Program-made: the position numbers and the translations under genes
In this document: positions 6,022 to 47,691 of the stretch, piece by piece
Position numbering within the stretch: position 1 is the stretch's first letter
How the letters are laid out: each line of letters begins with the position of its first letter
IMG/VR virus record: IMGVR_UViG_3300029760_000001
DNA length: 64,000 bases
Strand: one strand, 5' to 3'
DNA from: a virus
Notes under the pieces: generated by a model
Databases searched by the model: none
Seen by the model: the letters and a program-made list of their open reading frames with translations, nothing else
Told to the model about the DNA's origin: nothing

Positions 6022-6625
6022 AATTCATAATTTATACACAGGATACAGTAGAGATAAACCACTTTTATCTGGGTTTAATTATAATTTTGATAATAAGATC
6101 TACGGGATCCTTGGAGAATCTGGATGCGGCAAGACAACTTTGTTAAGGACGGTTGCAGGATTAATCAAACCGTTATCTGGAGAAATTATCATAGATAATA
6201 ATCCGGTTACAAAAGCAAGTAAAAATGAAGTATATATGATGCATCAGAACTATACTTCTTTTGATTGGTTAAATTGTCTTGACAATATACTAATTGCTAA
6301 AAAAGTTAAAGGCCATGTAGAACCAGAAGATATAGAAGCAGCTAAGAAGATGCTTTATTTAGTTGGTCTGAATGGAAACGAAAATAAATATCCTAAGCAG
6401 CTATCTGGAGGTATGAAACAACGGCTTGCGTTAGCCAGGACGTTATTTGCAAAACCAAAGATTCTTTTAATGGATGAACCATTGTCAGCACTGGATGCTG
6501 AGACACGAAGTAATATGCAATTGTTAATTATGGATTTGCATAGGTTACTTGATAATACTGTAATCATGGTCACACACAGTGAATCAGAAGCAAAGATAAT
6601 GTGTGATGAAATATTGAAATTTTAG
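6014..6625 (+). CDS. ABC transporter ATP-binding protein (short, SsuB/TauB-like)
   Basis: Walker [10 protein letters not shown], signature [13 protein letters not shown], Walker [13 protein letters not shown] and H-loop VTHS are all present. The start overlaps the permease stop. Confidence 0.75.
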
Positions 6626-6637
6626 GAAGGACATACA

Positions 6638-7908: not shown

Positions 7909-7919
7909 GGAGTAGTAAA

Positions 7920-9518: not shown

Positions 9519-9631
9519 GGAGTAATTATGGTTGCTTTAAATATAGAAACATTTGTTGTATGCCTTGTCATTGCTTTTCTGGCAGGCGTGGTGGTAAAAA
9601 CTATTATATCGAGAAAATAAAGGTGTGCAAT

Positions 9632-10015
9632 ATGTTGATAAGAAAAGAAATTATTCCAATAGATGAGGTATATTCAGCAGTAAAAGATGTATTGTTCGAA
9701 CCAAATAGAAAGAAATCCTTTGTTAATATTCGTGGGGATTTAATTAAAGGAAATAGTCAGCGATTTCAGACGTTTTTTACAAAAGGATTGAAATGCGTCT
9801 CTTGTGGAATAGAAGGCAAATATTTCGCAAAGGAAAAAACAAAGGGAGATAAGAGATATCATTTAAATCTATATGCTATAGATGGTAATGGAAAAGAGGT
9901 ATTAATGACAAAAGATCATATTTTTCCTCATAATAAAGGCGGAAAGAATAATATCTCTAATTATCAAACTATGTGTGTGAAATGCAATGTAGCAAAAGGA
10001 AGTAGGATATTATAG
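9632..10015 (+). CDS. HNH endonuclease (free-standing)
   Basis: HIFPHNKGGKNNISNYQTMCVKCNVAKG is an HNH core with the zinc-ligand cysteine pairs CVSCG and CVKCN. ATG 9632 has an AAAGGTG RBS; the track ORF 9560 start is probably over-extended. Confidence 0.6.
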   Translation: MLIRKEIIPIDEVYSAVKDVLFEPNRKKSFVNIRGDLIKGNSQRFQTFFTKGLKCVSCGIEGKYFAKEKTKGDKRYHLNLYAIDGNGKEVLMTKDHIFPHNKGGKNNISNYQTMCVKCNVAKGSRIL

Positions 10016-10027: not shown

Positions 10028-10540
10028 ATGAGTTTTGTTGTAAAAGGTAGTTTTGGAGAGATTGAAGTGGATTGTATTATAAATGGATTGATAACACCTA
10101 ATAAGATGATTATGTTTAATGCTATGCTTGTGGATGGCAGGAAGATATTTGTAGGGATTGCCCCAATAAACAAAGGTTATCAAGAAGCATTAGAGCAGAT
10201 TCAAGAAATCAATAAGATACTTGAAGGGGCAAATTGTAAAAAAGAAAAAGCAGCACCAGCCCATAAACCTAAATATAAATGGGGAGACTGGACAGAAGGT
10301 TACACTTATTTTATGGATCCATTTTCTCGTAGAGAAAAACTATTAGTATATAATGTTAGAACTAATGGTAAGAGAGTGCAGGTAGAATTTGACGGTGTAA
10401 AAGCTATGGCTTCTTGTAATATTGAAGCGGGAGATCAATTTAATTATCAGTTTGGTAAAAAATTAGCAGAACGAAGATTGATTGCGAAGTTAACTGAGAA
10501 ACTTGCAAATGATACAAGTAAAATCAACAAAACAAATTAA
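10028..10540 (+). CDS. hypothetical protein
   Basis: 170 aa ORF with a GGAGGAG RBS. Confidence 0.45.
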   Translation: MSFVVKGSFGEIEVDCIINGLITPNKMIMFNAMLVDGRKIFVGIAPINKGYQEALEQIQEINKILEGANCKKEKAAPAHKPKYKWGDWTEGYTYFMDPFSRREKLLVYNVRTNGKRVQVEFDGVKAMASCNIEAGDQFNYQFGKKLAERRLIAKLTEKLANDTSKINKTN

Positions 10541-10554
10541 ATTAACTTTGTATA

Positions 10555-10583
10555 TTGACAAACACAACTCGATATGCTATACT
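10555..10583 (+). promoter_or_regulatory. Sigma-A-type promoter (TTGACA, 17 nt spacer, TATACT) preceded by AAATTAAATTAACTTT box; drives the tRNA cluster
   Basis: Consensus -35, 17 nt spacer and a -10 one base off consensus. A stem-loop (AGCACAG...CTGTGCT, 10600-10636) and the first tRNA follow. Confidence 0.5.
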
Positions 10584-10680
10584 AAATACATAGTCAAGGA
10601 TGACAACAGCACAGTGGAGTGAAAGCTCCCTGTGCTAAATAAAAAGAAGAAAGAAATTTAATTATACAAACAATGAATGT

Positions 10681-10765
10681 AGCGGTATGATGAAATTGGC
10701 TAGACATAATAGACTTTGACTCTATTGAGCAGTAGCTCGTGTGGGTTCGAATCCCACTACCGCCG
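10681..10765 (+). tRNA. Type II (long variable arm) tRNA with anticodon UUG. The body is Leu/Ser-like, discriminator G, and pair 1:72 is an A:C mismatch
   Basis: Hand-folded. Acceptor AGCGGTA/TACCGCC; 3-bp D-stem ATG/CAT; anticodon stem ATAGA/TCTAT with loop CTTTGAC; 15-nt variable arm with GAGC/GCTC hairpin; T-arm GTGGG-TTCGAAT-CCCAC. Confidence 0.55.
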
Positions 10766-10844
10766 TTTGGCAAGTATTTTATAAAAATATACTCCAGCCG
10801 AATTGCAGAGAAATATAATTTAATTATACAAAAAGGAGATAAAA

Positions 10845-11963
10845 ATGAGTAAAATTATTAGTACAGGTTCCACTTTTAGAATCTACGGAGATGATCTTGT
10901 AACACATAATCAACTTCCGGCACAAATTTATTCTATCAGATGTTCAAAGATGACAGGATTTTATTTAGAGAAACATGCTGATATTGAGATCAATGAAGAT
11001 AAAATATACGGTGTGCACATGGAAAAAGTAAATAAAGTATTAAATGCTTTTCCAAATTTCAATAAAAATCTTGGCGTGATCTTATCTGGAGCCAAAGGAA
11101 TTGGCAAATCTTTATTTTCTAAGATTCTTGCTGTAGAAGCTGTAAAAAAAGGATTGCCAGTAATTATTGTTGATACATATATCCCTGGAATTGCTAATTT
11201 TATTGAAGAAATTGAACAGGAAGTATTAGTAATGTTTGATGAGTTTGATAAAACATTTGGTAATATTAAAGCTGCTGATGGTATGGCTAATCCGCAAACA
11301 GAGTTGCTTACATTATTTGATGGATTAGCTCAAGGGAAAAAGTTATATGTTATTACTTGTAATAATCTTAATACTCTGAGTGATTATTTGGTAAATAGAC
11401 CTGGAAGATTTCATTATCATTTTAGATTTGATTATCCGACAGATTCTGAAATCACAGAATATATGAGAGACAAGTTACATAAAGAGTATTATGGAGAAAT
11501 TAGTAAGGTAATTGCATTTTCTAAAAGAGTCAGCTTGAATTATGATTGTTTAAGAGCTATCGCATTTGAGCTTAATACAGGATTACAATTTCAAGAGGCA
11601 ATTAAAGATATGAATATCCTTCATATAAATAATACCGTTTATATAGCTACTTTGTATACTAAAGATGGGAAAAAAGATACAGAAGAAAAAACTCTTGACT
11701 TGTTTGATAAGACTTCTAATCATAGTTTATATTTTACAATAGATGGAAAATGGTTCTATACAAAATTTTCTGGTGTTGATGTAAGATATGATTTTGACAG
11801 ACACATTGATTTTGTTGATGGAAAAGATGTTGAAATTATTCCGGATGAAGACTATGCGGATCTTACAAAAGAAGAAAAGAAAAAATACGAAAATATTAAA
11901 ATTGATCGTATCGTTTTTGCAAGAAAAGAAGAAAAGGGACTTCATTATAATCTTGCTGCATAA
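10845..11963 (+). CDS. AAA-family ATPase
   Basis: Walker A GVILSGAKGIGKS and Walker B VLVMFDEFDK are present. The gene lies inside the tRNA cluster. Confidence 0.6.
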   Translation: MSKIISTGSTFRIYGDDLVTHNQLPAQIYSIRCSKMTGFYLEKHADIEINEDKIYGVHMEKVNKVLNAFPNFNKNLGVILSGAKGIGKSLFSKILAVEAVKKGLPVIIVDTYIPGIANFIEEIEQEVLVMFDEFDKTFGNIKAADGMANPQTELLTLFDGLAQGKKLYVITCNNLNTLSDYLVNRPGRFHYHFRFDYPTDSEITEYMRDKLHKEYYGEISKVIAFSKRVSLNYDCLRAIAFELNTGLQFQEAIKDMNILHINNTVYIATLYTKDGKKDTEEKTLDLFDKTSNHSLYFTIDGKWFYTKFSGVDVRYDFDRHIDFVDGKDVEIIPDEDYADLTKEEKKKYENIKIDRIVFARKEEKGLHYNLAA

Positions 11964-12130
11964 AAATTAAATTAAACATTCCGATAAATAAAAACTTTAA
12001 ATATGCAGAAGTTCGGTTATAAGCATATGTCTTTCATTTTACTTTTTACCTCTTATAACTCGTTTGAAGCAGGTCTTACGAGTATAAATAAACTGTATAA
12101 GGGTAAGCCGGTAGTAACCTTATACAACAA

Positions 12131-12210
12131 GCGGATATGGCGGAATTGGCAGACGTAGAAGGCTCAAACCCTTCGGAGAAATCGTGTGGGTTCGAATCCC
12201 ACTATCCGTA
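12131..12210 (+). tRNA. tRNA-Leu (anticodon CAA)
   Basis: Acceptor GCGGATA/TATCCGT (G1:U72 wobble); anticodon stem GAAGG/CCTTC with loop CTCAAAC; T-arm identical to the 10681 tRNA; 11-nt variable region; discriminator A. Confidence 0.6.
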
Positions 12211-12646
12211 TTCGGACTATTCTTACGGATTTACTTGATGGCCTAAATAGTAATGAGGAGAAATAAGTCCGAGAGGTTAACCTTTATATTATATAGCGTC
12301 TATAGGACATTAAAGAAGATTGAAAAGTTGGTGGAATACTGGAACCCAGTGATGAGGAAGCTGCGAATGTGTTGGTTGTATGGTTTGGACGCATTGAAAG
12401 GAAACATTTATATAGATGTGCTTTGTGCTAATGAGGTTGTGAGTGGGCGTTGGAGGAGGATCTGGTAGCAGATGTGTAATTAGTTACGAAGCGAAAAGTA
12501 ATTGAGTCAGTGAGGTAGAAATAATGTGGGAGGGCTTTTGAGAGTGATGACGATCGTTCGTGTAACTGACACGATTGCATAAGCAAGTTTTTTACAGATA
12601 TTGTTACATTTCTATATTGTGGGTGTAATTATAACGCCCACTACAT

Positions 12647-12720
12647 GGAAACTTAGCTCAGTTGGTTAGAGCAACCGGCTCATAACCGGTCGGTCCTGGG
12701 TTCGAGTCCCAGAGTTTCCA
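12647..12720 (+). tRNA. tRNA-Met (or Ile2-lysidine) anticodon CAT, elongator type
   Basis: Perfect cloverleaf: acceptor GGAAACT/AGTTTCC; D-arm GCTC-AGTTGGTTA-GAGC; anticodon stem ACCGG/CCGGT with loop CTCATAA; T-arm CTGGG-TTCGAGT-CCCAG. Confidence 0.8.
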
Positions 12721-12925
12721 TTTCTCCTGACGAAGGAGTGACTTTTATAGGCTGTAGAGTTCCAATAAGAAACAAGCCGTTTCTAGTTAGGGCGTGAAAC
12801 TGGTGTTTTTTTGAGATGTTTTATAAGTAAAAATATCCAGCTTTAGAGAAAATGTAGTGAATTGAGCTGATCAAAGAACACATAATCCTGTTAGGACTGC
12901 AGCACGACAGGTCATGCATGAAAAG

Positions 12926-12998
12926 TGATAAGTAGCTCAGTTGGGAGAAAGAGCGCACTACAAAAGTGAGGTCGGTGGTTCGAGTCCACTCTTATCAC
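12926..12998 (+). tRNA. tRNA-like gene with aberrant anticodon arm (possibly degenerate or non-canonical)
   Basis: Good acceptor (TGATAAG/CTTATCA) and T-arm (GGTGG-TTCGAGT-CCACT). The D-loop is 12 nt, and the anticodon region CACT-ACAAA-AGTG forms only a 4-bp stem with a 5-nt loop. Confidence 0.35.
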
Positions 12999-13075
12999 AT
13001 TTGTAATGATGACGCGCGGATCGTTACAAAAGAAAATAGTAACTACTGAAATGTATATTTAAGGAGGCAGTAAAC

Positions 13076-13447
13076 ATGACAAAATATGATTTATGTACGG
13101 GTGATATCGTTCTTTCTACAAAGGGAAGCTACGGTATTGTGCTAATCGGAACTAATGGAGATGATCAAATCAAATGGTACAGTAATAATAAAGGACAGGT
13201 TATTAACAGATTTAGATCTTTTTCTATGATTAACGAAGATCTTACATTTAAATATGATTTAGGTAATCGTATTATTAAGGTATGGAGAACGAAAGACAAA
13301 CATTATCTTGGTGATAAAGCAATTACAGAATATAATGCAGCAGAATGTCATGGATTTGAATGCATCTATGAAGAGTTAATTAAGGAAGTAACTATGGCTG
13401 AAGTTGAAGAAAAGTTTGGCTGCAAAGTAAAAATTGTAAAGAAATAA
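13076..13447 (+). CDS. hypothetical protein
   Basis: 123 aa ORF with a AAGGAGG RBS. Confidence 0.5.
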   Translation: MTKYDLCTGDIVLSTKGSYGIVLIGTNGDDQIKWYSNNKGQVINRFRSFSMINEDLTFKYDLGNRIIKVWRTKDKHYLGDKAITEYNAAECHGFECIYEELIKEVTMAEVEEKFGCKVKIVKK

Positions 13448-13582
13448 AATTTAATTATACAGGCACGTATAAATGAGAAATAGGAAATAATATTTGAAGC
13501 ACTATCTTAAAAGATCAGTGCATAGATGTCAGTGTGACAATAAACTGCAAGGTTATTCCACTTCGGAAAGCGAGGTGAAATA

Positions 13583-14503
13583 ATGGAGCAGAAGAAATTT
13601 ATGGATATTCAACGTCTGAAAGAAGGATATGCAGATGGATTTGTACCGGGTGACTTAATTGTTATCCAGGAAAAATTCGACGGATCCAATGCAGCAGCTA
13701 GATATGATGCAGAGACTGGCAAAATGGTAGCTTTTTCCAGAAGACATACGTTGGATCAGAACAATACATTAAATGGTTTTTATAATTATGTGCAGGAGTT
13801 AAATCCTGAAGATTATAAAGACGTTCCGGACTATGTAATATTTGGAGAATGGTCTGGAGCAAGAAATGCGATTATTTATTATCCAGAAAATACTAAGAAA
13901 TGGTACGTATTTGATATTTATGATGTAAGGGAAGAAAAATATCTTCCTCAGTCAGAAGTAAAGGCATTTGCAGAAACGCATGGACTTACATATATCAATA
14001 CATTTTATGTTGGACCGTTTGTCAGTTGGGAACATGTACAAAGTTTTATGGATCATCCGGGATATGGAGAAATTCAAGAAGGTATTGTTATAAAGAACCA
14101 AACAAGATTAAACGATCCGAATAGCAGATTACCATTTGTAGTGAAAATCGTTGGAGATAAATTTCATGAAGTCGCAAAAATGAATCATGTTAAAAAGATT
14201 CAAGATCCACAAAAGTTGCAAGAACGAACAGAAGCACAGGAACTTGTAAAATCTGTCGTGACGCGGCGTAGAGTTGAAAAAGAGTTATATAAAATGCGTG
14301 ATGAAGGAATCATCCCAACAGAGTGGTGTGAACAGGATATGAAAACTGTTGCAAGGAATCTTCCAAACAGAATTTATACAGATTGTGTAAAAGAAGAACC
14401 GGAAGTAGTTCGAGCAGCAGGACAATATTTTGGAAAATTCTGTTCCGTTATTTCGATGAATTACGCACGAGAGATTATTCTCGGTCCGACTGGAGCAAAG
14501 TAA
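13583..14503 (+). CDS. ATP-dependent RNA ligase (Rnl2/RNA_ligase family nucleotidyltransferase)
   Basis: Motif I IQEKFDGSNAA (KxDGxN, RNA-ligase type) and motif III-like FGEWSG. The size and neighbourhood (tRNA cluster) fit a phage tRNA-repair ligase. Confidence 0.55.
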   Translation: MEQKKFMDIQRLKEGYADGFVPGDLIVIQEKFDGSNAAARYDAETGKMVAFSRRHTLDQNNTLNGFYNYVQELNPEDYKDVPDYVIFGEWSGARNAIIYYPENTKKWYVFDIYDVREEKYLPQSEVKAFAETHGLTYINTFYVGPFVSWEHVQSFMDHPGYGEIQEGIVIKNQTRLNDPNSRLPFVVKIVGDKFHEVAKMNHVKKIQDPQKLQERTEAQELVKSVVTRRRVEKELYKMRDEGIIPTEWCEQDMKTVARNLPNRIYTDCVKEEPEVVRAAGQYFGKFCSVISMNYAREIILGPTGAK

Positions 14504-14521: not shown

Positions 14522-14737
14522 ATGGTGGCAACAGCATTTAGTAGATTATGTACTTCTTGTAAAAAAAGATTTGCATACAAACAAACAGACGCCATCTTTG
14601 ATGAGAATGGATATGGATATTCAACCAAGCTTGTGAGATGCAAACATTGTGGGCGATTAAATGTGATTCGATATTTTGAAGATGACTCGATGAAATTAAA
14701 CAATGATAGAAAATATTATGATTATGACATGGTATAG
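14522..14737 (+). CDS. small zinc-ribbon protein
   Basis: CTSCKK...CKHCGR forms two CxxC pairs. Confidence 0.35.
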   Translation: MVATAFSRLCTSCKKRFAYKQTDAIFDENGYGYSTKLVRCKHCGRLNVIRYFEDDSMKLNNDRKYYDYDMV

Positions 14738-36340: not shown

Positions 36341-36700
36341 ATGCCGGAACGTAACAGAGGATATTTGAGAGAACAAAGGTTAAAAAGTATTAAAAAGAGA
36401 CGCAGATTAATTAAGGGCCAAAAATATTCCGGAAGATATCTTGGAGAATGGATTGATGAACCTGAATTTAAATCTGGTGTATTAGCAAAAGGTCATAATG
36501 GTTTGCTTGGTCGAGGTGGCACTGCAGTAAAAACTAATACTCGTAAAGGACATGCTTCATATCGACATAAAGGTGCTTATGGTCCGGCAGACAACTATTC
36601 AAAACATGATAAGCAGCAAGTTGAAGATGGATCACAGCAAATTAAAGAATGGGAGAACAGAGATGGAAAAAGAGAAAAAGAAAGTCTTGATTGTGATTGA
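36341..36700 (+). CDS. hypothetical basic protein
   Basis: 119 aa, R/K-rich. Confidence 0.35.
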   Translation: MPERNRGYLREQRLKSIKKRRRLIKGQKYSGRYLGEWIDEPEFKSGVLAKGHNGLLGRGGTAVKTNTRKGHASYRHKGAYGPADNYSKHDKQQVEDGSQQIKEWENRDGKREKESLDCD

Positions 36701-37217
36701 TGTACAGAATGATTTTGTAACCGGTTCACTTGGTACGCCGGAAGCTCAAGCTATTATTCCGAATGTAAAAAAGAAATTTGATGAATATAAGAATAATAAG
36801 AACTATGTAATTCTTACAAAGGATACTCATCATTCAGATTACGCAGATACTTCAGAGGGCAGAAAACTTCCTGAACATTGTATGTATGGTACTAAAGGTT
36901 GGGAAATTGTTGATGAACTTGATTATAAAAATCTCGATAGTTTTATGGTATGTTGTAAATCTACTTTTGGATTTGATGACTGGGATTGGGAAGAAACATT
37001 TGATATCGTATATGATTCTTCTTTATTAGATATTGAAATTATTGGCATATGCACAGATATCTGTGTTATTACGAACGCTCTTTTGATTAAAACTTATTAT
37101 CCAGAGGCAAAAATCACAGTTGATGCATCATGCTGCGCAGGATCAACACCGGAAAAGCATAAAGCGGCTCTTGATGTAATGGAAAGCTGCCAGATTAATG
37201 TAATCAATAGAAATTAA
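36663..37217 (+). CDS. pncA: Isochorismatase-family cysteine hydrolase, nicotinamidase (PncA)-like
   Basis: VLIVIDVQNDF (Asp), the K in ILTKDTHH, and the GICTDICV catalytic Cys form the nicotinamidase triad pattern. Confidence 0.65.
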   Translation: MEKEKKKVLIVIDVQNDFVTGSLGTPEAQAIIPNVKKKFDEYKNNKNYVILTKDTHHSDYADTSEGRKLPEHCMYGTKGWEIVDELDYKNLDSFMVCCKSTFGFDDWDWEETFDIVYDSSLLDIEIIGICTDICVITNALLIKTYYPEAKITVDASCCAGSTPEKHKAALDVMESCQINVINRN

Positions 37218-39876: not shown

Positions 39877-40674
39877 ATGATTAAATTAAACGACGTAGAA
39901 ATCAAACTTAATAAATATCCGGATGGAACATTCTTATTTAAGGATATTCCTCCTATTGGACCCAAAAACCTTATTGAATGGTTTTTTGAGTCAATGGAAG
40001 AAATGTCAGCAATTATTTATCTTACTCAATATTGTAAAGATCAGGGTACTAAAATTTATTTAGATATGCCATATATTCCTGATGCACGTATGGATAGAGT
40101 AAAAAAGAGAAAAGAAATCTTTACACTAAAATATTTTGCTCAAATTATTAACTTGTTAAATTTTGAACAGGTAGAAGTTTTAGATCCTCACTCTGATGTA
40201 TCTGCCGCATTATTTAATAAAGTACATGTAGGAACCCCGAATCGAATGATTGAAACTGCTGTTAAGAAGATTGCGAGTAATAATCTTATGATGTTTTATC
40301 CGGATGCGGGATCTATGAAAAGATATTCTTCAGCAGTACATCTTCCATATGCTTTCGGTATTAAGAATAGAGATTGGGAAACAGGAGAGATTAAAGGTTT
40401 AGATTTATCTGGTGAAATTGATCAATTACCAGGTAAAGACATTCTTATTGTAGATGACATTTGCAGCAGAGGTGGTACTTTTTATTATAGTGCTAAAAAG
40501 CTGAAAGAGGCCGGTGTAGGTAAGATTTATCTTTATATTACTCATTGTGAGAATACTATTTATGAAGGAGAACTTCTGAAAAATAATGGATTGATTGAGA
40601 AGATTTATACGACAGATACGATTCTGACAAATCTGGAAAGTCCTAAGATTGAACTGGTTGAGAGATTTAGATAA
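39877..40674 (+). CDS. Prs-like phosphoribosyl pyrophosphokinase-family enzyme (candidate ADP-ribose pyrophosphokinase Adps / PRPP synthetase)
   Basis: The type I PRTase PRPP-binding loop ILIVDDICSRGGT is present, and the architecture is Prs-like. It lies immediately upstream of the NAMPT-like gene. Confidence 0.5.
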   Translation: MIKLNDVEIKLNKYPDGTFLFKDIPPIGPKNLIEWFFESMEEMSAIIYLTQYCKDQGTKIYLDMPYIPDARMDRVKKRKEIFTLKYFAQIINLLNFEQVEVLDPHSDVSAALFNKVHVGTPNRMIETAVKKIASNNLMMFYPDAGSMKRYSSAVHLPYAFGIKNRDWETGEIKGLDLSGEIDQLPGKDILIVDDICSRGGTFYYSAKKLKEAGVGKIYLYITHCENTIYEGELLKNNGLIEKIYTTDTILTNLESPKIELVERFR

Positions 40675-40683: not shown

Positions 40684-41052
40684 ATGAAACCGATTGTTAG
40701 TCCTTGGACGATTTATTTTGCTAGTAGAGCAGATTCTTTGAAGATTCTTGCTGGATGTATTTTAATATGCTGCATAATTGCGATATGTATAGCATTCATT
40801 GAGGGTGACATAGACTATGGATCTGTATTAACTCATAAAAGTTTTATGAAGAAATGTGCGATAGTATCTGTCATCAGCGCAGTTACTTTGGTTATCACTC
40901 CAAGTACAGAAACAATATATACGATGGCAGTTGTAAAGGAAATTACACCTGACAACATTCAAGCAATTGGGAAAACCGGCAAGGATGTTATTGATTACAT
41001 TACAGATCAGATTGATAAAGTTATAAATGATAAAGAGGAGAATAAAAAATAA
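40684..41052 (+). CDS. small membrane protein
   Basis: 122 aa with two predicted TM helices. Confidence 0.4.
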   Translation: MKPIVSPWTIYFASRADSLKILAGCILICCIIAICIAFIEGDIDYGSVLTHKSFMKKCAIVSVISAVTLVITPSTETIYTMAVVKEITPDNIQAIGKTGKDVIDYITDQIDKVINDKEENKK

Positions 41053-42524
41053 TGAATACAATGGCAATTTTACTCTCAGACACATATAAACAGATACATA
41101 ATAAAATCTATCCGAAAGGACTGGATCAATTAGTATCTTACTGGACCCCACGAAGATCAATGCTTAAGAATCAGAACAAAATGGTATTCTTTGGTCTACA
41201 GGCATTTATTGAAGAGTATCTGGTCGATTATTTTAATAAAAACTTTTTTGAATTAACAGCAGCAGAAGTTGAGCATACATATAAATACAGTATGGATATA
41301 CAGTTAGGAAATAGTTATGACCTAAAGCCTATTATGAAACTTCATAAATTAGGTTATCTTCCAATTCGGATACGTGCTATTCCGGAGGGAACATTAGTAC
41401 CAATGGGCATCCCATGCATCGAAATTACAAATACACATCCAGATTTTGCCTGGGTAGTACAGTGGATCGAATGTATTCTGCAGGTTGAACTCTGGAAACC
41501 ATGTGCTCATGCAACAATTGGTCATATGTATAGAGAACTTGCAAACGACTACTATAAAATGACCTGTGATGACTTTTTAAGACCTGAAATGGCCTGCTCA
41601 GACTTTGGTATGAGAGGAATGTCTTGTATGGAAGAGGCTATTAGATGCTCGTCTGCTTGGTTATTGTCATTTGATAAAACAAGTACAATTCCTGCTATTG
41701 ATTATATAGATACATATTATGATGCTTGTTGCTGGACTGAAAAGATTGGAATTGGGGCTGTATCAACAGAGCATAGCTGCATGGCTTCAAACTTTGCAGT
41801 AGACGGTGATGAAATCACATTTGTAAAAAGACTACTTACAGAACTATATCCTAATGCATCTTTTAGTATGGTATCTGATACATATGATTACTGGAACATG
41901 ATTGATAATATTCTTCCGGCTTGTAAAAAAGAAATCATGCAGCATAATGGTAAACTTCTGGTTCGTCCAGATTCCGGAGATATGGTAGAAATTGCTGTAG
42001 AGACAATTGAAAAGCTTTGGAATACATTCGGCGGAACAGTAAATAGCAAGGGATATAAAGTGCTTGATCCGCACATTGGAATTATCTATGGAGACGGATG
42101 TACTCTCAACAATGTAGAACAGGTATGGGAAGAACTTAAAGAAAAAGGATTCGCTGCAAACAATATCGTATTCGGGGTCGGAGCATTTTGCTTCTCAGCA
42201 GTTATAGAACCCGATGGACATATAGTTGTTGTAACTAGGGATATGTTTGGTATTGCTATGAAAGCTACATATGGAATTGTTAATGGCGAGCCAATTATGA
42301 TTTATAAAGATCCAAAAACCGACACGAGTCATTTGAAAAAGTCTCATAAAGGGTGTTGTTGTATATATCACGATGACAATGGAGAGTTGCAATGCATGGA
42401 TGGATTTAATGATGTATTTCGTGACGGAGTATTAAGAACTGTATTTAAAGACGGTGAAATGTATCATAAAGAAACATTTGAAGACATTAGAGAAAGATTA
42501 AACAGAGGAAACAAAGATGAGTAA
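41052..42524 (+). CDS. nadV: Nicotinamide phosphoribosyltransferase family (NadV / candidate Namat)
   Basis: The N-terminal LLSDTYKQIHNKIYP matches the NAMPT DSYK.H motif. At 490 aa with GDGCTL...GVGAF, it is type II PRTase (NAPRTase family)-like. Confidence 0.65.
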   Translation: MNTMAILLSDTYKQIHNKIYPKGLDQLVSYWTPRRSMLKNQNKMVFFGLQAFIEEYLVDYFNKNFFELTAAEVEHTYKYSMDIQLGNSYDLKPIMKLHKLGYLPIRIRAIPEGTLVPMGIPCIEITNTHPDFAWVVQWIECILQVELWKPCAHATIGHMYRELANDYYKMTCDDFLRPEMACSDFGMRGMSCMEEAIRCSSAWLLSFDKTSTIPAIDYIDTYYDACCWTEKIGIGAVSTEHSCMASNFAVDGDEITFVKRLLTELYPNASFSMVSDTYDYWNMIDNILPACKKEIMQHNGKLLVRPDSGDMVEIAVETIEKLWNTFGGTVNSKGYKVLDPHIGIIYGDGCTLNNVEQVWEELKEKGFAANNIVFGVGAFCFSAVIEPDGHIVVVTRDMFGIAMKATYGIVNGEPIMIYKDPKTDTSHLKKSHKGCCCIYHDDNGELQCMDGFNDVFRDGVLRTVFKDGEMYHKETFEDIRERLNRGNKDE

Positions 42525-42990
42525 AATTACAGATTATTTATTAAAAGATGATGTGATTGTAGTAATGGATGTAGATGGAGTACTTGCTCCGTATGAGTTC
42601 TCTGAATTAAGTCATAGTATGACTGATGATGAATGGGATAGACTTGTAGCTTCCGGTGAGAATCCGTATAAAGATGTACGTCCGATTAAATTAATGCAAG
42701 AGTTCATTCAGAAGAAAGGTATTGACAAAGTATATGCTTGTTCAAAGAGTCCTTCTAGTGAGATCCCCGGCAAAAGAGCTTTTATCAAAGATAATTACGG
42801 CCTTCCGGATGATAATATCTATTTTACTTTAGAAAAGACAGAAAAACTTACTGTGCTTCAGACGCTGCAACAAAAGCTTGGGCTTAAGCCGTCTCAGATT
42901 GCAATTGTAGAGGATACAGTAAAAACTTTGGATTATATTCGTGCACATAGTGATTTTGTAACTGTACACGTTTCATCATTTATGGAGTAA
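42517..42990 (+). CDS. HAD-superfamily 5'(3')-deoxyribonucleotidase-like protein
   Basis: HAD motif I VVMDVDGVL (DxDGV) in a 157 aa protein, NT5C-like in size. Confidence 0.45.
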   Translation: MSKITDYLLKDDVIVVMDVDGVLAPYEFSELSHSMTDDEWDRLVASGENPYKDVRPIKLMQEFIQKKGIDKVYACSKSPSSEIPGKRAFIKDNYGLPDDNIYFTLEKTEKLTVLQTLQQKLGLKPSQIAIVEDTVKTLDYIRAHSDFVTVHVSSFME

Positions 42991-43005: not shown

Positions 43006-43545
43006 ATGAATTTACAAAGTATTAGTAGATATATAAGTCTTATATTAAGACATAAGCCTGAAGTTATTGGTATTACTATAGATGAACATGGTTGGGCGAA
43101 TGTAGAAGAACTGATTCAGGGTATCGCTAAAAACAATCCCAGATTCAACAAAGAATTTTTAGAGGAAATTGTACGGACTGACAATAAGCAGCGATATTCT
43201 TTCAATGACGACAAGACATTGATCAGAGCGAATCAGGGACATTCAATTCCGGTAGATGTAGAACTGGAAGAGAAAGAGCCACCTAAAATTCTTTATCATG
43301 GAACTGGCGAGAAATATATAGCGTCTATTGATCAGAATGGACTGATTCCTAAAAGTCGTTTATATGTTCATTTGTCAAAAGATGTTGAAACCGCCAAAGC
43401 TGTCGGCAAGAGACATGGTAAAGAAGTTGTTTATTCTATCAATAGTGAACAGATGTACAAAGATGGATACAAATTTTACTTATCTAAAAATGGAGTTTGG
43501 CTGACTAAAAGGGTTCCAGTGAAATATTTAATGAAGGAGGTATAA
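43006..43545 (+). CDS. kptA: RNA 2'-phosphotransferase Tpt1/KptA family (NAD+-dependent)
   Basis: [32 protein letters not shown]...LYHGT...LYVHLS matches the KptA/Tpt1 (PTS_2-RNA) family. Confidence 0.65.
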
Positions 43546-45333: not shown

Positions 45334-45762
45334 ATGATTAATAGTTTTACTGGAGATTATTACTTTTTAAGTAACTTTTATATGGCACCGGTAAATTACA
45401 ACGGATGGGACTATACAAATAATGAAGCAGCTTTTCAAGCGCAGAAAACAAAGAATCGTAGACTAAGATTCCAGTTATTTTCTGAAGCTAACCCATCAGA
45501 AGCAAAAGCAGCAGGCAGAAAGATTGATTTAAGATCTGATTGGGAAGAAGTGAAAGATAAAGTAATGTATGAAATCGTACTGGCTAAATTCACTCAGAAT
45601 CCAGACCTTAAGGAAAAGTTACTTGCTACAGGTGATGAACATTTGGAAGAAGGAAATACATGGGGAGATACAACTTGGGGAACTGTTAATGGTATTGGAG
45701 AAAACAGGCTTGGTATAATTCTTATGAAAGTAAGAAAGGAACTGCAGGAGGAATCAAAATGA
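45334..45762 (+). CDS. NADAR / YbiA-like (DUF1768) domain protein
   Basis: GDYYFLSNFY...EAAFQAQKT...W...G matches the YbiA/NADAR family. That family includes N-glycosidases and the guanine de-ADP-ribosylating NADAR antitoxins. Confidence 0.6.
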   Translation: MINSFTGDYYFLSNFYMAPVNYNGWDYTNNEAAFQAQKTKNRRLRFQLFSEANPSEAKAAGRKIDLRSDWEEVKDKVMYEIVLAKFTQNPDLKEKLLATGDEHLEEGNTWGDTTWGTVNGIGENRLGIILMKVRKELQEESK

Positions 45763-45977: not shown

Positions 45978-46119
45978 GTGGAATATTCACTTAGTGATGA
46001 AAGTACATATCGTAAATATCATGGAAGAATAGGACAAACAGTGTCTGCAGTATTAGTTACTAAAACATATGATGATGGTGAGGTTAGGCAGTATATTAAT
46101 CGTTTGGGAGGATTATAAG

Positions 46120-46881
46120 ATGAAATATTACAATGGATACTTTAAAGAACTTAAGAATGAAATTGTACAGTGGATCAGAGACTGGTTTGATCAAAATGGC
46201 CCAGGCTGCAATGCAATAGTAGGAATCTCTGGTGGAAAAGATTCTTCTGTTGTAGCAGCATTATGTGTTGAAGCATTAGGAAAAGACAGAGTAATTGGTG
46301 TGCTTATGCCACAGGGTCAGCAGAAAGATATTTATGCTGCGTACAAGCTTTGTGAATTTCTTGATATTAAATCATACGAAATCAACATTGGCGACACAGT
46401 TCGAAGTGTATTGTCAAGACTCGAAAGCTCAGGAATCGAGATCAGCGAACAGACAAAAATAAATCTTCCGGCACGTATTAGAATGTCTACATTATATGCT
46501 GTCTCTCAGTCTTGTAATGGAAGAGTAGCAAATACATGTAATCTTTCAGAATCATATGTCGGTTATGAAACCAGGTATGGTGATTCGGCAGGTGATTTTA
46601 GTCCGTTAGGAAAATTAACTGTATATGAAGTTAAAAAACTTGGATATGAATTATTGCTTCCTACAGAACTTATTGAAAAGATCCCGATAGATGGCTTGTG
46701 TGAAAAGACAGATGAGGACAATTTAGGATTCCCATATGAAGTTCTGGACAGATATCTTCGTACAGGAGAGATTGACGATCTGGATGTAAAAGCTAAGATT
46801 GATTTAATGCATAAACGATGCCTTTTTAAATCAGAGAAGATCCCGGTATTTAATCCTGGATTAAAAGTAGAGGTAGCATAA
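46120..46881 (+). CDS. nadE: NH3-dependent NAD+ synthetase
   Basis: PP-loop GISGGKDSS, 253 aa from the MKYYNGYF start, with a GGAGGA RBS 7 nt upstream. Confidence 0.75.
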   Translation: MKYYNGYFKELKNEIVQWIRDWFDQNGPGCNAIVGISGGKDSSVVAALCVEALGKDRVIGVLMPQGQQKDIYAAYKLCEFLDIKSYEINIGDTVRSVLSRLESSGIEISEQTKINLPARIRMSTLYAVSQSCNGRVANTCNLSESYVGYETRYGDSAGDFSPLGKLTVYEVKKLGYELLLPTELIEKIPIDGLCEKTDEDNLGFPYEVLDRYLRTGEIDDLDVKAKIDLMHKRCLFKSEKIPVFNPGLKVEVA

Positions 46882-47141
46882 TGGAAAATGTACTTATATC
46901 AATTTTTTTGTTCGAACTTTTCTTTACAATGCTTTTAGTAATAAACTGTGCAGTAGATGAATTATTACCAATAGAAGAATATAAAATGTTGGTCCAAAAT
47001 AGAAATTGGTTCGGTAAGATATATATATTTATTACAATTATATTTACTATTCCTTCAGCAATTATTATATATATCGCTTTGTTAATTGTGTTATTAATAA
47101 CATTTATTTATACACTTGGAATTAAAGAGGAGAAGAAATAA
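46881..47141 (+). CDS. small membrane protein
   Basis: 86 aa with two TM helices. Confidence 0.35.
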   Translation: MENVLISIFLFELFFTMLLVINCAVDELLPIEEYKMLVQNRNWFGKIYIFITIIFTIPSAIIIYIALLIVLLITFIYTLGIKEEKK

Positions 47142-47142
47142 C

Positions 47143-47691
47143 ATGAAACCATATGATGTTGGGCTTGTTTGCGGGCGTTTTCAAACGTTCCACAAAGGCC
47201 ATGAAAAACTTATTGATACTGGGTTATTACTTTGTGATCGAATGCTTATTCTCGTCGGTAGCGCTCAAGAATGCGGGACAGAACGTAATCCTTTGAATGT
47301 CAATACTAGAATCAAGATGATACGTGAAGTGTATGGTGATGATCCAAACATTATGATTTATGCATTATCAGATCTCACTGATGAAAATGATATTACTCCA
47401 GATTGGGGTAGATATCTTCTTCAAAATGTGGATCGGTATATTTATAAAAATCCAGATGTAATGATTTATGGTAATGATGATAGCCGGAGCGGATGGTTTG
47501 ATAAGAAAGATTTAAAGAACACAACCGAATTAATCATTAATCGTGAAGAATTACCCATCTCTGGGACCATGTTGAGAGCACTTATGATACAGGATAAACG
47601 GCGAGAATGGATGACTTTTGTTAATCCTAAGTTACATAAAATGTATGATGAAATTCGTAGTGAACTTATGGAAAGCATAAGGGAGAATTAA
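47143..47691 (+). CDS. Nicotinamide/nicotinate mononucleotide adenylyltransferase (NadM/NadR-type cytidylyltransferase fold)
   Basis: VCGRFQTFHKGHEKLI is the (H/T)xGH nucleotidyltransferase motif in its GRFQPFHxGH NMNAT form. 182 aa. Confidence 0.7.
   Translation: MKPYDVGLVCGRFQTFHKGHEKLIDTGLLLCDRMLILVGSAQECGTERNPLNVNTRIKMIREVYGDDPNIMIYALSDLTDENDITPDWGRYLLQNVDRYIYKNPDVMIYGNDDSRSGWFDKKDLKNTTELIINREELPISGTMLRALMIQDKRREWMTFVNPKLHKMYDEIRSELMESIREN

What the first reader, a model, noticed from the sequence alone, without database searches (positions are those of the whole stretch)
10555..14503. tRNA cluster with Rnl-type RNA ligase (and Tpt1 at 43006): candidate tRNA repair/replacement module against anticodon nucleases
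At least four tRNA or tRNA-like genes sit behind strong sigma-A promoters, next to an ATP-dependent RNA ligase (KxDGxN motif I). A Tpt1/KptA 2'-phosphotransferase is encoded elsewhere in the phage. This is the classic signature of phage countermeasures to anticodon nucleases (PrrC, RloC, colicin-like, PARIS/Retron-Eco7 tRNA cleavage). Tpt1 would be needed if ligation leaves a 2'-phosphate (plant/yeast-type healing), which is uncommon in phages.
Basis: partly seen in the sequence, partly recalled or inferred. Interest (0 to 1): 0.65.

Follow-up and report, generated by a model that had tools for sequence, protein, structure and literature searches.

The report
Phage tRNA array, RNA ligase, distant Tpt1
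A large gut-bacterium prophage carries four real tRNA-type genes, a working-looking RNA ligase and a Tpt1 enzyme, but the tRNAs fit ordinary codon top-up and the three parts are not linked as a repair module; the unexpected part is that its glutamine tRNA is built on a leucine-type long-arm scaffold.

Summary
ARAGORN and Rfam both find four tRNA or tRNA-like genes at 10681-12998. A PF09414 RNA ligase sits at 13583-14503. A genuine Tpt1/KptA sits at 43006-43545.

The interpretation as one anti-anticodon-nuclease repair/replacement module is only partly supported.
- The four anticodons read CAA, UUG, AUA (if CAU is lysidinylated) and UGU. These rank 2nd, 4th, 6th and 7th of 61 codons for phage-over-host enrichment, which is classic codon compensation.
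- The ligase is a stand-alone gene heading the replication block. Its catalytic domain is closest to the nick-sealing ligases Rnl5, Rnl2 and REL1, not to T4 Rnl1 or Trl1.
- More distant relatives keep the ligase without any tRNAs.
- No Pnkp, 2H or RtcB gene is present in the window.
- Tpt1 lies 28.5 kb away inside an NAD+/ADP-ribose island.

Unexpected findings:
- The "Gln" tRNA has a Leu-type, long-variable-arm body with a UUG anticodon and G73.
- A related lineage independently added a long arm to a canonical tRNA-Gln.
- A tRNA-like element with a degenerate anticodon arm always precedes the ligase operon in the syntenic relatives where the site could be read.

The parts
10555..10583 (+). 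Near-consensus sigma-70/sigma-A type promoter-like site upstream of tRNA 1
   Evidence: TTGACA, 17 nt, TATACT with TG extension; 11 of 12 matches. Function is inferred.
10608..10636 (+). Very stable leader hairpin between the promoter and tRNA 1
   Evidence: The 10590-10679 stretch folds at -22.3 kcal/mol, z = -5.7, with 0 of 200 shuffles as stable. No U tract follows, so it is not a terminator.
10681..10765 (+). tRNA 1: class-II-like tRNA with a Leu-type body, a 4-bp/4-nt variable arm, anticodon UUG (Gln), G73, an A1.C72 mismatch and G2-C71
   Evidence: ARAGORN and Rfam at 49.1 bits. Its nearest database matches are phage tRNA-Leu genes. It occupies the position of a canonical 74-75 nt tRNA-Gln(UUG) in L028, L029 and L043.
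10845..11963 (+). AAA+ ATPase (phrog_2376) lying between tRNA 1 and tRNA 2
   Evidence: PF00004 at E=3e-9 and phrog_2376 at E=2e-112. Homologues in Bacillus and Staphylococcus phages show no annotated tRNA among the features within 6 kb, so it is probably unrelated to the RNA genes.
12131..12210 (+). tRNA-Leu(CAA) with A73 and a shortened variable arm (80 nt)
   Evidence: ARAGORN and Rfam at 52.7 bits. Conserved in relatives, as UAA in L030.
12211..12645 (+). Conserved non-coding spacer of about 435 nt between tRNA-Leu and tRNA(CAU)
   Evidence: A spacer of 380-500 nt is present in all syntenic relatives, with invariant blocks. RNAalifold predicts 37 pairs, 16 with compensatory changes. There is no Rfam match, and the MFE z-score is only -0.5.
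12647..12720 (+). tRNA with anticodon CAU: elongator Met or, more likely, Ile2 (lysidine, reading AUA)
   Evidence: Rfam at 73.6 bits. G1-C72 argues against an initiator. The L030 orthologue, which has the same T arm, carries UAU.
12926..12998 (+). tRNA-Cys-derived tRNA-like element: anticodon ACA here and GCA in variants, with a weak 3-4 bp anticodon stem and an acceptor helix that can extend to 8 bp
   Evidence: Rfam at 41.1 bits with 4 anticodon-stem positions deleted. Folds are and population variants.
13000..13030 (+). Conserved hairpin between the tRNA-like element and the ribosome-binding site of the ligase operon
   Evidence: An 11-bp hairpin. The sequence is conserved across window-type variants.
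13076..13447 (+). 123-aa ORF of unknown function, always found upstream of the ligase in the syntenic relatives
   Evidence: 50-68% identical and in the same position in L028, L029, L030 and L043. No Pfam or PHROG match.
13583..14503 (+). ATP-dependent RNA ligase of the PF09414 superfamily (phrog_548): an N-terminal nucleotidyltransferase domain plus its own all-helical C-terminal domain
14522..14737 (+). Small zinc-ribbon protein downstream of the ligase
   Evidence: Weak Zn_ribbon hits. Syntenic in relatives.
36552..37217 (+). Isochorismatase-family protein (candidate nicotinamidase), near the start of the NAD+ island
   Evidence: PF00857 at E=4e-23. The nicotinamidase role is inferred from context.
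39877..40674 (+). Ribose-phosphate diphosphokinase-like protein (candidate Adps or Prs)
   Evidence: TIGR01251 at E=3e-27, below the cut-off, and weak Pfam hits. It lies directly upstream of the NAMPT-family gene.
41052..42524 (+). NAMPT/NadV-family phosphoribosyltransferase (candidate Nampt or Namat)
   Evidence: NF006629 at 469 bits, above the 405-bit cut-off. PF04095 and PF18127 also match.
42517..42990 (+). HAD-superfamily hydrolase directly upstream of Tpt1
   Evidence: DVDGV motif and TIGR01509 at E=3e-6. There is only a faint hit (E=0.14) to the HAD domain of 'Swiss Army Knife' RNA repair proteins.
43006..43545 (+). Tpt1/KptA RNA 2'-phosphotransferase
   Evidence: PF01885 at E=3e-48 and NF002014 above its cut-off. 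R15, H16, R63 and R118 are present in the translation and correspond to the essential Arg16, His17, Arg64 and Arg119 of Runella Tpt1 (PMC6097658).
43966..44466 (+). Macro-domain protein (DarG-macro-like or Poa1p-like)
   Evidence: phrog_335 at E=7e-41. NCBIfam DarG at E=6e-15. PDB hits are DarG macrodomains at E=2e-6 and yeast ADP-ribose-1''-phosphate phosphatase at E=1.6e-3.
45334..45762 (+). NADAR-domain protein
   Evidence: PF08719 at E=3e-28. It is also found near Tpt1 in the relative L089.
46069..46881 (+). NAD synthase (NadE)
   Evidence: PF02540 at E=1e-52.
47116..47691 (+). Nicotinamide-nucleotide adenylyltransferase-like protein
   Evidence: PF01467 at E=6e-11 and NF002243 at E=5e-17, below the cut-off.

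Best explanation
These are three separate, individually ordinary phage features rather than one module.

1. The tRNA array. An early-region RNA-gene array of a low-GC (33%) prophage supplies decoders for A/U-rich codons. The relatives of this phage are 100-180 kb contigs in Lachnospiraceae-type hosts. The 43%-GC host rarely uses these codons. The decoders are UUG for CAA, CAA for UUG, CAU (probably lysidinylated) for AUA, and a Cys-derived element for UGU. The array is transcribed from a near-consensus promoter and is presumably cut into units by RNase P and RNase Z (inferred).

2. The RNA ligase. It is an independent, catalytically intact member of the PF09414 superfamily. It heads the replication/recombination block and most likely seals 3'-OH/5'-PO4 breaks in base-paired RNA, as Rnl2 and Rnl5 do (inferred from fold).

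3. Tpt1. It belongs to an NAD+/ADP-ribose island made up of a Prs-like gene, a NAMPT-like gene, a HAD hydrolase, Tpt1, a macro-domain gene, a NADAR gene, NadE, an NMNAT-like gene and a candidate nicotinamidase. The job of this island is to rebuild NAD+ and to process ADP-ribose derivatives during infection.

The Gln decoder is a recombinant tRNA. It has a Leu-type class-II body, the Gln anticodon loop, G73 and a weak 1-72 pair, and it replaces the canonical tRNA-Gln that related phages carry at the same position.
For: Setting:
- GC content is 0.30-0.37 up to about 50 kb and 0.41-0.45 beyond that.
- An integrase lies at 50995-52257 next to a tRNA-Arg at 52531.
- Relatives are human-gut IMG/VR contigs of 100-180 kb and Lachnospiraceae/Blautia MAGs.

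Codon test:
- In 15,188 phage codons against 2,813 host codons, the phage/host ratios are CAA 4.3x (rank 2), TTG 2.9x (rank 4), ATA 2.5x (rank 6) and TGT 2.2x (rank 7).
- The chance that three random codons all fall in the top 6 is 5.6e-4.
- Relatives keep the same anticodon set, and one carries Leu(UAA), which reads TTA (rank 3).

Ligase:
- PF09414 is matched and all nucleotidyltransferase motif residues are invariant.
- The block orf13076, ligase, Zn-ribbon, phrog_2367 and AAA_24 is syntenic in relatives and is followed in the window by a helicase, a nuclease and Pol III alpha.
- Homologues occur in Staphylococcus, Listeria and Bacillus phages (G1 is Herelleviridae). Bacillus phage Thrax2 has this ligase in addition to a separate RNA ligase adjacent to a polynucleotide kinase.
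- Relatives at 54-56% identity carry the ligase with no tRNAs.

Tpt1 island:
- The island members are identified.
- Macro-domain phosphatases are known additions to NARP1 operons (bioRxiv 10.64898/2026.01.28.702374).
- NADAR next to NAD+ salvage genes is a known phage arrangement (PMC9503650).

Chimeric tRNA.
Against: - Codon compensation does not explain why the Gln tRNA has a long variable arm, nor why a second lineage (L030) independently inserted a stem-loop into the variable region of a canonical tRNA-Gln and of a tRNA-Ile.
- It also does not explain why a tRNA-like element without a usable anticodon loop is kept directly upstream of the ligase operon in the lineages where the site could be read.
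- The host codon sample is small: 7 genes.
- The CAU tRNA has not been shown to be Ile2.
- Only about 50 kb of a phage that is probably 150-180 kb is in the window, so healing enzymes could lie outside it.
- No biochemical data exist for this ligase clade.
- Tpt1 has no known substrate in bacteria other than RNA 2'-phosphates and nucleic-acid ends, so an RNA role is not excluded.
Confidence: 0.6

Rival explanations
1. The tRNAs, the ligase and Tpt1 act together against host anticodon nucleases: cleaved tRNAs are healed to 3'-OH/2'-PO4 and 5'-PO4 ends, sealed by the ligase and cleaned by Tpt1, while phage tRNAs replace the targets.
For: - All three parts are present and look active.
- The scheme has been proposed for large phages (PMC9503650).
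- A bacterial HD-Pnk, ligase and Tpt1 gene cluster is a precedent (PMC6097658).
- A macro domain and a NADAR domain, which could dispose of the Tpt1 by-product, lie beside Tpt1.
- The unusual shape of the tRNA-Gln could reflect escape from a tRNA-targeting enzyme.
Against: - No kinase, 2H or RtcB gene is in the window.
- The ligase and Tpt1 are 28.5 kb apart and sit in different functional blocks.
- The ligase fold is closer to Rnl2 and Rnl5 than to Rnl1 or Trl1.
- The ligase occurs without tRNAs, and Tpt1 occurs without a ligase within 5 kb, in the more distant relatives that were sampled.
- The tRNA set is fully predicted by codon bias.
Confidence: 0.15
2. The odd tRNAs are nuclease- or toxin-resistant replacement tRNAs. 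The long variable arm on tRNA-Gln, and on tRNA-Ile in L030, changes the tRNA shape so that a host tRNA-targeting defence cannot bind it, while decoding is preserved. The ligase and Tpt1 play no part.
For: - Two independent origins of a long arm on a UUG tRNA. In the window it is a Leu-type body; in L030 it is a Gln body with a 6-bp/GAAA insertion.
- Phage tRNAs that escape nucleases through sequence changes are documented (PMC10264068, listed; also cited in PMC13056530).
Against: - No nuclease target or host tRNA sequences are available for comparison.
- Close relatives (L028, L029 and L043) manage with canonical tRNA-Gln.
- The published escape mutations are in anticodon loops, not variable arms.
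Confidence: 0.12
3. The tRNA-like element, and perhaps the whole array, serves mainly as a set of RNA-processing signals. RNase P or RNase Z cleavage at the acceptor/T-arm module defines the 5' end of the orf13076-ligase mRNA, so only the top half of the cloverleaf is under selection.
For: - At the same site upstream of the operon, different lineages carry different tRNA-like bodies. Their anticodon arms have 4-10 nt loops or 7-8 bp stems, but their acceptor stems are kept by compensatory changes and their T arms are intact.
- No good promoter-like site lies between the element and the ORF.
- The flanking sequences are conserved.
Against: - Variants with a normal Cys GCA anticodon loop exist, so the element may simply be a decaying or weak tRNA-Cys.
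- Ligase genes in more distant relatives have no such element.
- There are no transcript data.
Confidence: 0.2
4. Tpt1 works inside the NAD+ island as part of a closed loop. It removes 2'-phosphates (or terminal phosphates) from an RNA or nucleotide substrate at the cost of NAD+. The macro domain and the HAD hydrolase then turn the ADP-ribose phosphate by-product back into ADP-ribose, and the Prs-like and NAMPT-like enzymes rebuild NAD+.
For: - The gene order is Prs-like, NAMPT-like, HAD, Tpt1, a small ORF, then macro, with overlapping or close-set reading frames.
- Poa1p-like macro phosphatases convert ADPR-1''-phosphate to ADPR for NARP1.
- Poa1p is a PDB match of the window macro protein.
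Against: - The best macro matches are DarG-type DNA de-ADP-ribosylases, not Poa1p.
- No cyclic phosphodiesterase was found to open ADPR-1'',2''-cyclic phosphate.
- The Adps and Namat identities were not tested.
- Tpt1 neighbours are not conserved in distant phages.
Confidence: 0.15

Closest known systems
Codon-compensating tRNA genes of large phages
   Same: A small cluster of tRNA genes in an AT-rich phage whose anticodons read the codons that the phage uses far more than its host does.
   Different: One member has a class-II (long-arm) Leu-type body with a Gln anticodon. Another member lacks a proper anticodon stem. A spacer of about 435 nt, conserved and non-coding, sits inside the array.
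T4 Rnl1 + Pnkp tRNA repair against PrrC
   Same: A phage-encoded ATP-dependent RNA ligase with a lysine nucleophile, in a phage that also carries tRNAs.
T4 Rnl2, Naegleria Rnl5 and trypanosome REL1 nick-sealing RNA ligases (PF09414)
   Different: Scores are far below the NCBIfam equivalog cut-offs: Rnl2 25 bits against 197, and DRB0094 24 bits against 151. The C-terminal domain does not align with any solved ligase. No biochemistry is available.
KptA-2H-Macro(-NADAR) NAD+-dependent RNA repair proposed for large phages (Iyer et al. 2022), and the Runella HD-Pnk/ligase/Tpt1 cluster
   Same: Tpt1, macro and NADAR are encoded close together in a large phage that also has an RNA ligase.
   Different: No 2H or HD-Pnk healing enzyme was found. 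The ligase is not clustered with Tpt1. The Tpt1 neighbours are NAD+ salvage genes.
NAD+ reconstitution pathways NARP1, NARP1-AP and NARP2 of phages
   Same: A Prs-like gene lies adjacent to a NAMPT-family gene, with a macro-domain protein, an NMNAT-like gene and NadE in the same island.
   Different: Tpt1, a HAD hydrolase and NADAR are interleaved with these genes. Whether the enzymes are Adps/Namat or Prs/Nampt was not determined.

Membership tests
tRNA (Rfam RF00005) | Cloverleaf scoring above the family gathering threshold | tested here: met
   All four genes score 41-74 bits against a threshold of 29. ARAGORN agrees.
Class II tRNAs (Leu, Ser and Tyr in bacteria) | A long variable arm with its own stem | tested here: met
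   tRNA 1 has U-GAGC-AGUA-GCUC-GU between the anticodon and T arms. Its nearest database matches are phage tRNA-Leu genes.
Class II tRNAs (Leu, Ser and Tyr in bacteria) | An anticodon of Leu, Ser or Tyr, and A73 for Leu | tested here: not met
   The anticodon is UUG (Gln) and the discriminator is G73. The neighbouring true tRNA-Leu has CAA and A73.
Canonical bacterial tRNA-Gln | A class-I body with a short variable loop, a U1-A72 pair and G73 | tested here: not met
   The window tRNA 1 has a long arm and A1.C72; only G73, G2-C71 and the anticodon loop agree. Relatives L028, L029 and L043 do carry the canonical form.
PF09414 RNA ligase superfamily | A Pfam match above the gathering score, plus motifs I, III, IIIa, IV and V | tested here: met
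   93.1 bits against a threshold of 27. K31, D33, G34, E89, D111, E166, G167 and K188 are invariant in 46 sequences.
Rnl2 family (TIGR02307) | An equivalog-level sequence match | tested here: not met
T4 Rnl1 family (PF09511) | A family-level sequence match and the best structural match | tested here: not met
T4-type tRNA repair system | A polynucleotide kinase-phosphatase encoded with the ligase | tested here: not met
   None was found in the window, nor within 6 kb of the ligase in the relative neighbourhoods examined (L033 and L039 by Pfam; others by tblastn with window proteins). The rest of the phage genome could not be read.
Yeast/plant-type healing and sealing (Trl1 + Tpt1) | A cyclic phosphodiesterase and a 5' kinase that create 2'-PO4/3'-OH and 5'-PO4 ends | tested here: not met
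   No 2H or CPDase domain and no Pnk-type P-loop kinase were found among the window ORFs.
Yeast/plant-type healing and sealing (Trl1 + Tpt1) | A ligase that requires a 2'-PO4 at the 3' end | not testable with these tools
Tpt1/KptA | A family match above the curated cut-off, plus the Arg-His-Arg-Arg active site | tested here: met
   NF002014 scores 261.6 against 239, and PF01885 matches at E=3e-48. R15, H16, R63 and R118 are read from the translation and compared with PMC6097658.
NARP1 / NARP1-AP | Adjacent Prs-like (Adps) and NAMPT-like (Namat) genes, optionally with a macro phosphatase | tested here: inconclusive
   The adjacency and the macro gene are present. Adps and Namat specificity was not tested, and the best macro match is DarG.
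Codon-compensating phage tRNAs | Anticodons that read codons enriched in the phage relative to the host | tested here: met
   Ranks 2, 4, 6 and 7 of 61. The host sample is only 2,813 codons.

The most novel reading that the evidence does not exclude
In this phage the decoder for CAA/CAG is a hybrid tRNA: a Leu-derived class-II scaffold with a Gln anticodon.

Compared with its Leu neighbour, it has exactly the acceptor-end changes that E. coli identity rules associate with a switch from Leu to Ser identity: A73 to G73, and C2-G71 to G2-C71 (PMC9976931). These same changes also fit Gln identity.

There are two possibilities. Either it is the first class-II tRNA-Gln, or it is an ambiguous decoder that SerRS can charge, so that the phage inserts some Ser at Gln codons.

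A second lineage independently added a long arm to a canonical tRNA-Gln. This suggests that the extra arm itself is selected, for example to escape a host tRNA-targeting defence.
Probability: 0.15. Interest if true: 0.75.

Novelty: new variant of a known kind. Interest (0 to 1): 0.42.

Why it matters
As first stated (tRNAs + Rnl + Tpt1 as an anti-nuclease repair kit), the finding would be one more unproven instance of an idea already in the literature. The evidence here points instead to codon top-up plus two unrelated accessory functions. That matters as a caution: finding an RNA ligase, Tpt1 and tRNAs in the same large phage does not by itself indicate tRNA repair.

Two things deserve follow-up.
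- A class-II tRNA body carries a glutamine anticodon, with a convergent long-arm tRNA-Gln in a sister lineage. This bears on how tRNA identity and shape evolve under phage-host conflict, and it can be tested directly by charging assays.
- Tpt1 is placed inside an NAD+-rebuilding operon. This may point to what bacterial-type Tpt1 enzymes actually do, which remains an open question.

Tried and rejected
- **Rfam on the spacer.** Scans with relaxed thresholds over 10400-13700 and 12205-12650 found no known RNA family. The only hits were chance-level snoRNA-like matches caused by UGAUGA/CUGA motifs.
- **Spacer as a large, highly stable structured RNA.** The MFE z-score is -0.5, so this is not supported by energy alone. 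A pattern search of IMG/VR found the spacer only in this phage clade, too few lineages for a sound covariation test.
- **AAA+ ATPase as part of an RNA module.** Rejected. Homologues in Bacillus and Staphylococcus phages sit among DNA-metabolism genes, with no tRNA annotated nearby.
- **'Strong promoters' in front of every tRNA.** Only one near-consensus site was found, and the overall count is no higher than in shuffles.
- **First ligase model.** The model from a shallow alignment was poor (pLDDT 67.5), and its Foldseek ranking was superseded by the pLDDT-90 model.
- **Searches for Pnkp, 2H or RtcB.** Pfam, PHROGs, NCBIfam and motif scans found none in the window. The guanylate-kinase-like P-loop protein at 29092-29715 sits among nucleotide-metabolism genes and was not taken as a polynucleotide kinase.
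- **PurA-like gene as PurZ.** Rejected: 47 bits against a cut-off of 300.
- **Conserved Tpt1 neighbours in distant phages.** None were found apart from one NADAR.
- **GGA (CsrA-type) motif enrichment in the spacer.** Considered by eye and dropped, because the count is about what the base composition predicts. This was my own estimate, not a tool result.

Full report
**Observation**

ARAGORN finds four tRNA genes on the + strand between 10680 and 12999, and a fifth, tRNA-Arg(CCG), at 52531. Rfam's tRNA model independently scores all four above its gathering threshold: 49.1, 52.7, 73.6 and 41.1 bits against 29.

The ORF at 13583-14503 (306 aa) matches PF09414 'RNA_ligase' at E=2.8e-26 and contains EKFDGSN. 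The ORF at 43006-43545 matches PF01885 (Tpt1/KptA) at E=3e-48 and passes the NCBIfam equivalog cut-off.

Only the 'strong promoters' claim is overstated. There is one near-consensus site at 10555-10583 and one 10-of-12 site at 12591-12618, and the region holds no more promoter-like sites than shuffled sequence does.

**Setting**

The window is 30-37% GC up to about 50 kb and 41-45% GC after that. A tyrosine integrase at 50995-52257 on the minus strand abuts tRNA-Arg at 52531.

The first 50 kb therefore look like the end of a prophage. They encode Pol III alpha, a RecD-like helicase, ribonucleotide reductase, a ThyX-like protein and dUTPase.

The ligase protein finds 43 IMG/VR loci, mostly on human-gut contigs of 100-180 kb. 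It also finds Lachnospiraceae, Blautia and Hungatella assemblies.

**The tRNAs and codon usage**

Relatives whose ligase is 72-78% identical (L028, L029, L030 and L043) keep the same array in the same order. The order is a UUG tRNA just upstream of the AAA+ ATPase gene, then a Leu tRNA (CAA, or UAA in L030), a spacer of 380-500 nt, and then a CAU tRNA (UAU in L030).

I compared 15,188 codons from 53 phage ORFs with 2,813 codons from the 7 host ORFs in the window. By phage/host frequency ratio the top codons are:

| Rank | Codon | Ratio |
|---|---|---|
| 1 | CTA | 6.9 |
| 2 | CAA | 4.3 |
| 3 | TTA | 3.8 |
| 4 | TTG | 2.9 |
| 5 | ATT | 2.7 |
| 6 | ATA | 2.5 |
| 7 | TGT | 2.2 |

.

The phage anticodons map onto this list as follows:
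- UUG reads CAA.
- CAA reads UUG.
- CAU reads AUA if converted to lysidine.
- The fourth element (GCA or ACA) reads UGU.
- The Leu(UAA) of L030 reads UUA.

The chance that three random codons all fall in the top six is 5.6e-4.

The CAU tRNA has a G1-C72 pair, so it is not an initiator. Its L030 orthologue has the same T arm and carries UAU, which favours Ile over Met, but this is an inference.

The caveat is the small host sample.

**Unusual tRNA architecture**

tRNA 1 (10681-10765) is not a normal tRNA-Gln.
- It has a D arm and a T arm almost identical to those of the neighbouring tRNA-Leu.
- It has a 4-bp/4-nt variable arm, which makes it a class-II shape.
- Its nearest matches in 50,697 phage records are tRNA-Leu genes.
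- Its anticodon loop, CUUUGAC, is that of the canonical tRNA-Gln genes that occupy the same position in L028, L029 and L043.
- Relative to the Leu neighbour (G1.U72, C2-G71, A73), its acceptor end reads A1.C72, G2-C71, G73.

According to the identity rules compiled in PMC9976931:
- A73 is required by LeuRS.
- Replacing A73 with G73 switches Leu identity towards Ser.
- C2-G71 is an anti-SerRS element.
- SerRS ignores the anticodon.
- GlnRS reads the acceptor stem, the discriminator, U35 and G36.

The sequence is therefore compatible with Gln identity and, on paper, with Ser identity. Which one applies cannot be settled here.

Independently, the L030 lineage carries a canonical Gln body with a 6-bp/GAAA stem-loop inserted in its variable region (92 nt). 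It also carries a tRNA-Ile(UAU) with a 3-bp stem-loop at the same place (88 nt). Only the 5' half of the L030 Gln tRNA matches known phage tRNA-Gln genes.

So there are two separate origins of a long arm on the same decoder. Codon supply alone does not account for that.

**The fourth element**

In the window, 12926-12998 has a 3-4 bp anticodon stem and ACA at the anticodon position. Population variants have GCA with the loop CUGCAAA, and either U73 or C73, so the element derives from a tRNA-Cys.

Other lineages carry other tRNA-like bodies at the same site, directly upstream of the orf13076-ligase operon and flanked by conserved sequence. Their 'anticodon' arms vary:
- 4-nt loops in L026, L043 and L030.
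- A 10-nt loop in L007.
- 7-8 bp stems in L028, L029 and L043.

In all of them the acceptor helix is maintained by compensatory changes and the T arm is intact. This points to selection on the acceptor/T-arm half, which is the part recognised by RNase P, RNase Z and the CCA-adding enzyme. I therefore regard an RNA-processing role for the downstream mRNA as a reasonable but untested idea.

**The ligase**

Sequence:
- All nucleotidyltransferase motif residues are invariant across 46 homologues of 39-81% identity.
- The ligase falls below the NCBIfam cut-offs for the archaeal RNA ligase family, Rnl2 and DRB0094.
- By sequence it hits only Rnl3-type structures, and weakly.

Structure:
- A first AlphaFold model was poor.
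- A model from a deeper alignment reached pLDDT 90.
- Foldseek gives the same set of families.

Homologues and context:
- Homologues at 28-40% identity are the 'RNA ligase' or 'lig' genes of Staphylococcus, Listeria and Bacillus phages; Staphylococcus phage G1 is a member of Herelleviridae.
- In phage G1 the gene lies beside PhoH and RNase H genes.
- In Bacillus phage Thrax2 it coexists with a separate RNA ligase adjacent to a polynucleotide kinase. That is what one would expect if this family is the 'second', Rnl2-like ligase rather than the tRNA-repair ligase.
- In the window and its closer relatives the gene belongs to a conserved block: orf13076, ligase, Zn-ribbon, phrog_2367 and AAA_24. 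In the window a helicase, a PD-(D/E)XK nuclease and Pol III alpha follow.
- In relatives at 54-56% identity the ligase sits among DNA methyltransferase, TnpB, integrase and nucleotidase genes, with no tRNA within 6 kb.

**Tpt1 and its neighbourhood**

Tpt1 has R15, H16, R63 and R118. These correspond to the four residues essential in Runella Tpt1 (PMC6097658).

| Coordinates | Gene |
|---|---|
| 36552-37217 | Isochorismatase-family protein |
| 38770-39876 | PurA-like protein |
| 39877-40674 | Prs-like protein |
| 41052-42524 | NAMPT-family enzyme, above its NCBIfam cut-off |
| 42517-42990 | HAD hydrolase |
| 43006-43545 | Tpt1 |
| 43966-44466 | Macro-domain protein |
| 45334-45762 | NADAR |
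| 46069-46881 | NadE |
| 47116-47691 | NMNAT-like protein |

The best matches of the macro protein are DarG macrodomains, followed by yeast ADP-ribose-1''-phosphate phosphatase.

This is an NAD+/ADP-ribose island of the kind described for phage NAD+ reconstitution. Macro-domain phosphatases are a known accessory of NARP1 operons, and NADAR next to salvage genes is a known arrangement.

Tpt1 relatives in more distant phages have no conserved neighbours, apart from a NADAR in L089.

**Linkage**

The ligase and Tpt1 are 28.5 kb apart and sit in different functional blocks. Pfam, PHROGs, NCBIfam and motif scans of the window ORFs found no Pnkp-type kinase/phosphatase, no 2H phosphoesterase and no RtcB.

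The only conceivable healing candidates are two:
- A generic calcineurin-like phosphoesterase at 35128-35880.
- The HAD hydrolase, which has a faint (E=0.14) resemblance to an RNA-repair HAD domain.

Neither counts as evidence.

Co-occurrence across relatives could not be tested rigorously, because the locus search finds only relatives that share exact peptide words, and because the rest of the phage genome lies outside the window.

**Synthesis**

The best-supported reading (confidence about 0.6) is that the finding merges three separate features:
- A codon-compensating tRNA array.
- A stand-alone PF09414 ligase that probably seals breaks in base-paired RNA.
- A Tpt1 that belongs to an NAD+/ADP-ribose island.

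Shown: the gene identities, the motif integrity, the codon ranks, the synteny, and the lack of healing genes in the window. Inferred: the processing by RNase P/Z, the ligase substrate, and the role of the island.

The integrated repair/replacement model (about 0.15) has been proposed in the literature for large phages (PMC9503650) and has a bacterial precedent in the Runella HD-Pnk/ligase/Tpt1 cluster. Here it lacks the healing enzymes, the clustering and the co-conservation.

The variable-arm tRNAs leave room for a 'shape-changed replacement tRNA' idea (about 0.12). The tRNA-like element leaves room for a processing-signal idea (about 0.2, not exclusive with the others). The Tpt1 context leaves room for an NAD+-recycling loop (about 0.15).

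**Novelty and score**

The parts are members of known kinds. The variants are the class-II-bodied tRNA with a Gln anticodon, with its convergent counterpart in a sister lineage, and Tpt1 interleaved with NAD+ reconstitution genes. I found no description of a long-arm tRNA-Gln in the papers searched, but that search was shallow.

I rate the finding as a new variant of a known kind, with an interest of about 0.4.

Noticed in passing
window 12211-12645: A conserved, purine-rich, non-coding spacer between tRNA-Leu and tRNA(CAU). It is present at 380-500 nt in all syntenic relatives and has invariant blocks, for example CATTTATATAGAT. RNAalifold predicts 37 pairs, 16 of them with compensatory changes. 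There is no Rfam match, and it was found only in this phage clade.
   Followed up: partly
window 12544-12572 and 13000-13030: Two hairpins share a UGAUGAC...CG(A)UCGUU motif, and the first is followed by CUGA. This resembles a C/D-box or kink-turn arrangement and explains the chance-level snoRNA hits in Rfam.
   Followed up: no
window 10608-10636: An unusually stable hairpin (z = -5.7) lies between the strong promoter-like site and tRNA 1. No U tract follows it.
   Followed up: no
L030 3920-4011 and 4569-4656: A related phage has a canonical tRNA-Gln(UUG) body with a 6-bp/GAAA stem-loop inserted in the variable region (92 nt). It also has a tRNA-Ile(UAU) with a 3-bp stem-loop at the same place (88 nt).
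   Followed up: partly
L026 3950-4729 (the blastn gap pattern suggests a similar insert in L015, L025 and L031): L026 carries an ADP-ribosylglycohydrolase gene (PF03747, E=2e-28), together with two small membrane-like ORFs, inserted inside the tRNA array between tRNA(CAU) and the tRNA-like element. Three other strain variants show a gap of similar size at the same site; their inserts were not read.
   Followed up: partly
L028 2760-2843, L029 2137-2220, L043 3902-3987; window 63126-63198: RAGATH-27 RNAs (90-97 bits) lie near the tRNA array in three relatives but are absent from the window: upstream of the tRNA-Gln in L028 and L029, and between the ATPase gene and tRNA-Leu in L043. A RAGATH-18 RNA (58 bits) lies in the host-like part of the window.
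   Followed up: no
window 50995-52603: A tyrosine integrase lies next to tRNA-Arg(CCG), at the point where GC content rises from about 33% to about 43%. This is probably the prophage/host junction, which would imply a very large temperate phage.
   Followed up: partly
window 38770-39876: An adenylosuccinate-synthetase-like gene (368 aa) sits inside the NAD+ island. It scores below the cut-offs for both PurA and PurZ, and its role is unclear.
   Followed up: partly
window 5275-9518: Phage-borne cargo that looks cellular: an ABC transporter permease and ATPase, a PspA/IM30-like protein, and a 532-aa protein with a substrate-binding-like domain plus an OmpA C-terminal domain.
   Followed up: no
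window 422-1854 and 9560-10015: Two HNH endonuclease genes are present, one with NUMOD4. A 295-aa BRCT-domain protein lies at the window start and may be part of a DNA ligase gene that has been interrupted or cut by the window edge.
   Followed up: no
L033 4423-5631 and 7868-9298: In a more distant relative, the ligase gene is flanked on both sides by TnpB/Cas12f-like (OrfB_IS605) genes.
   Followed up: no
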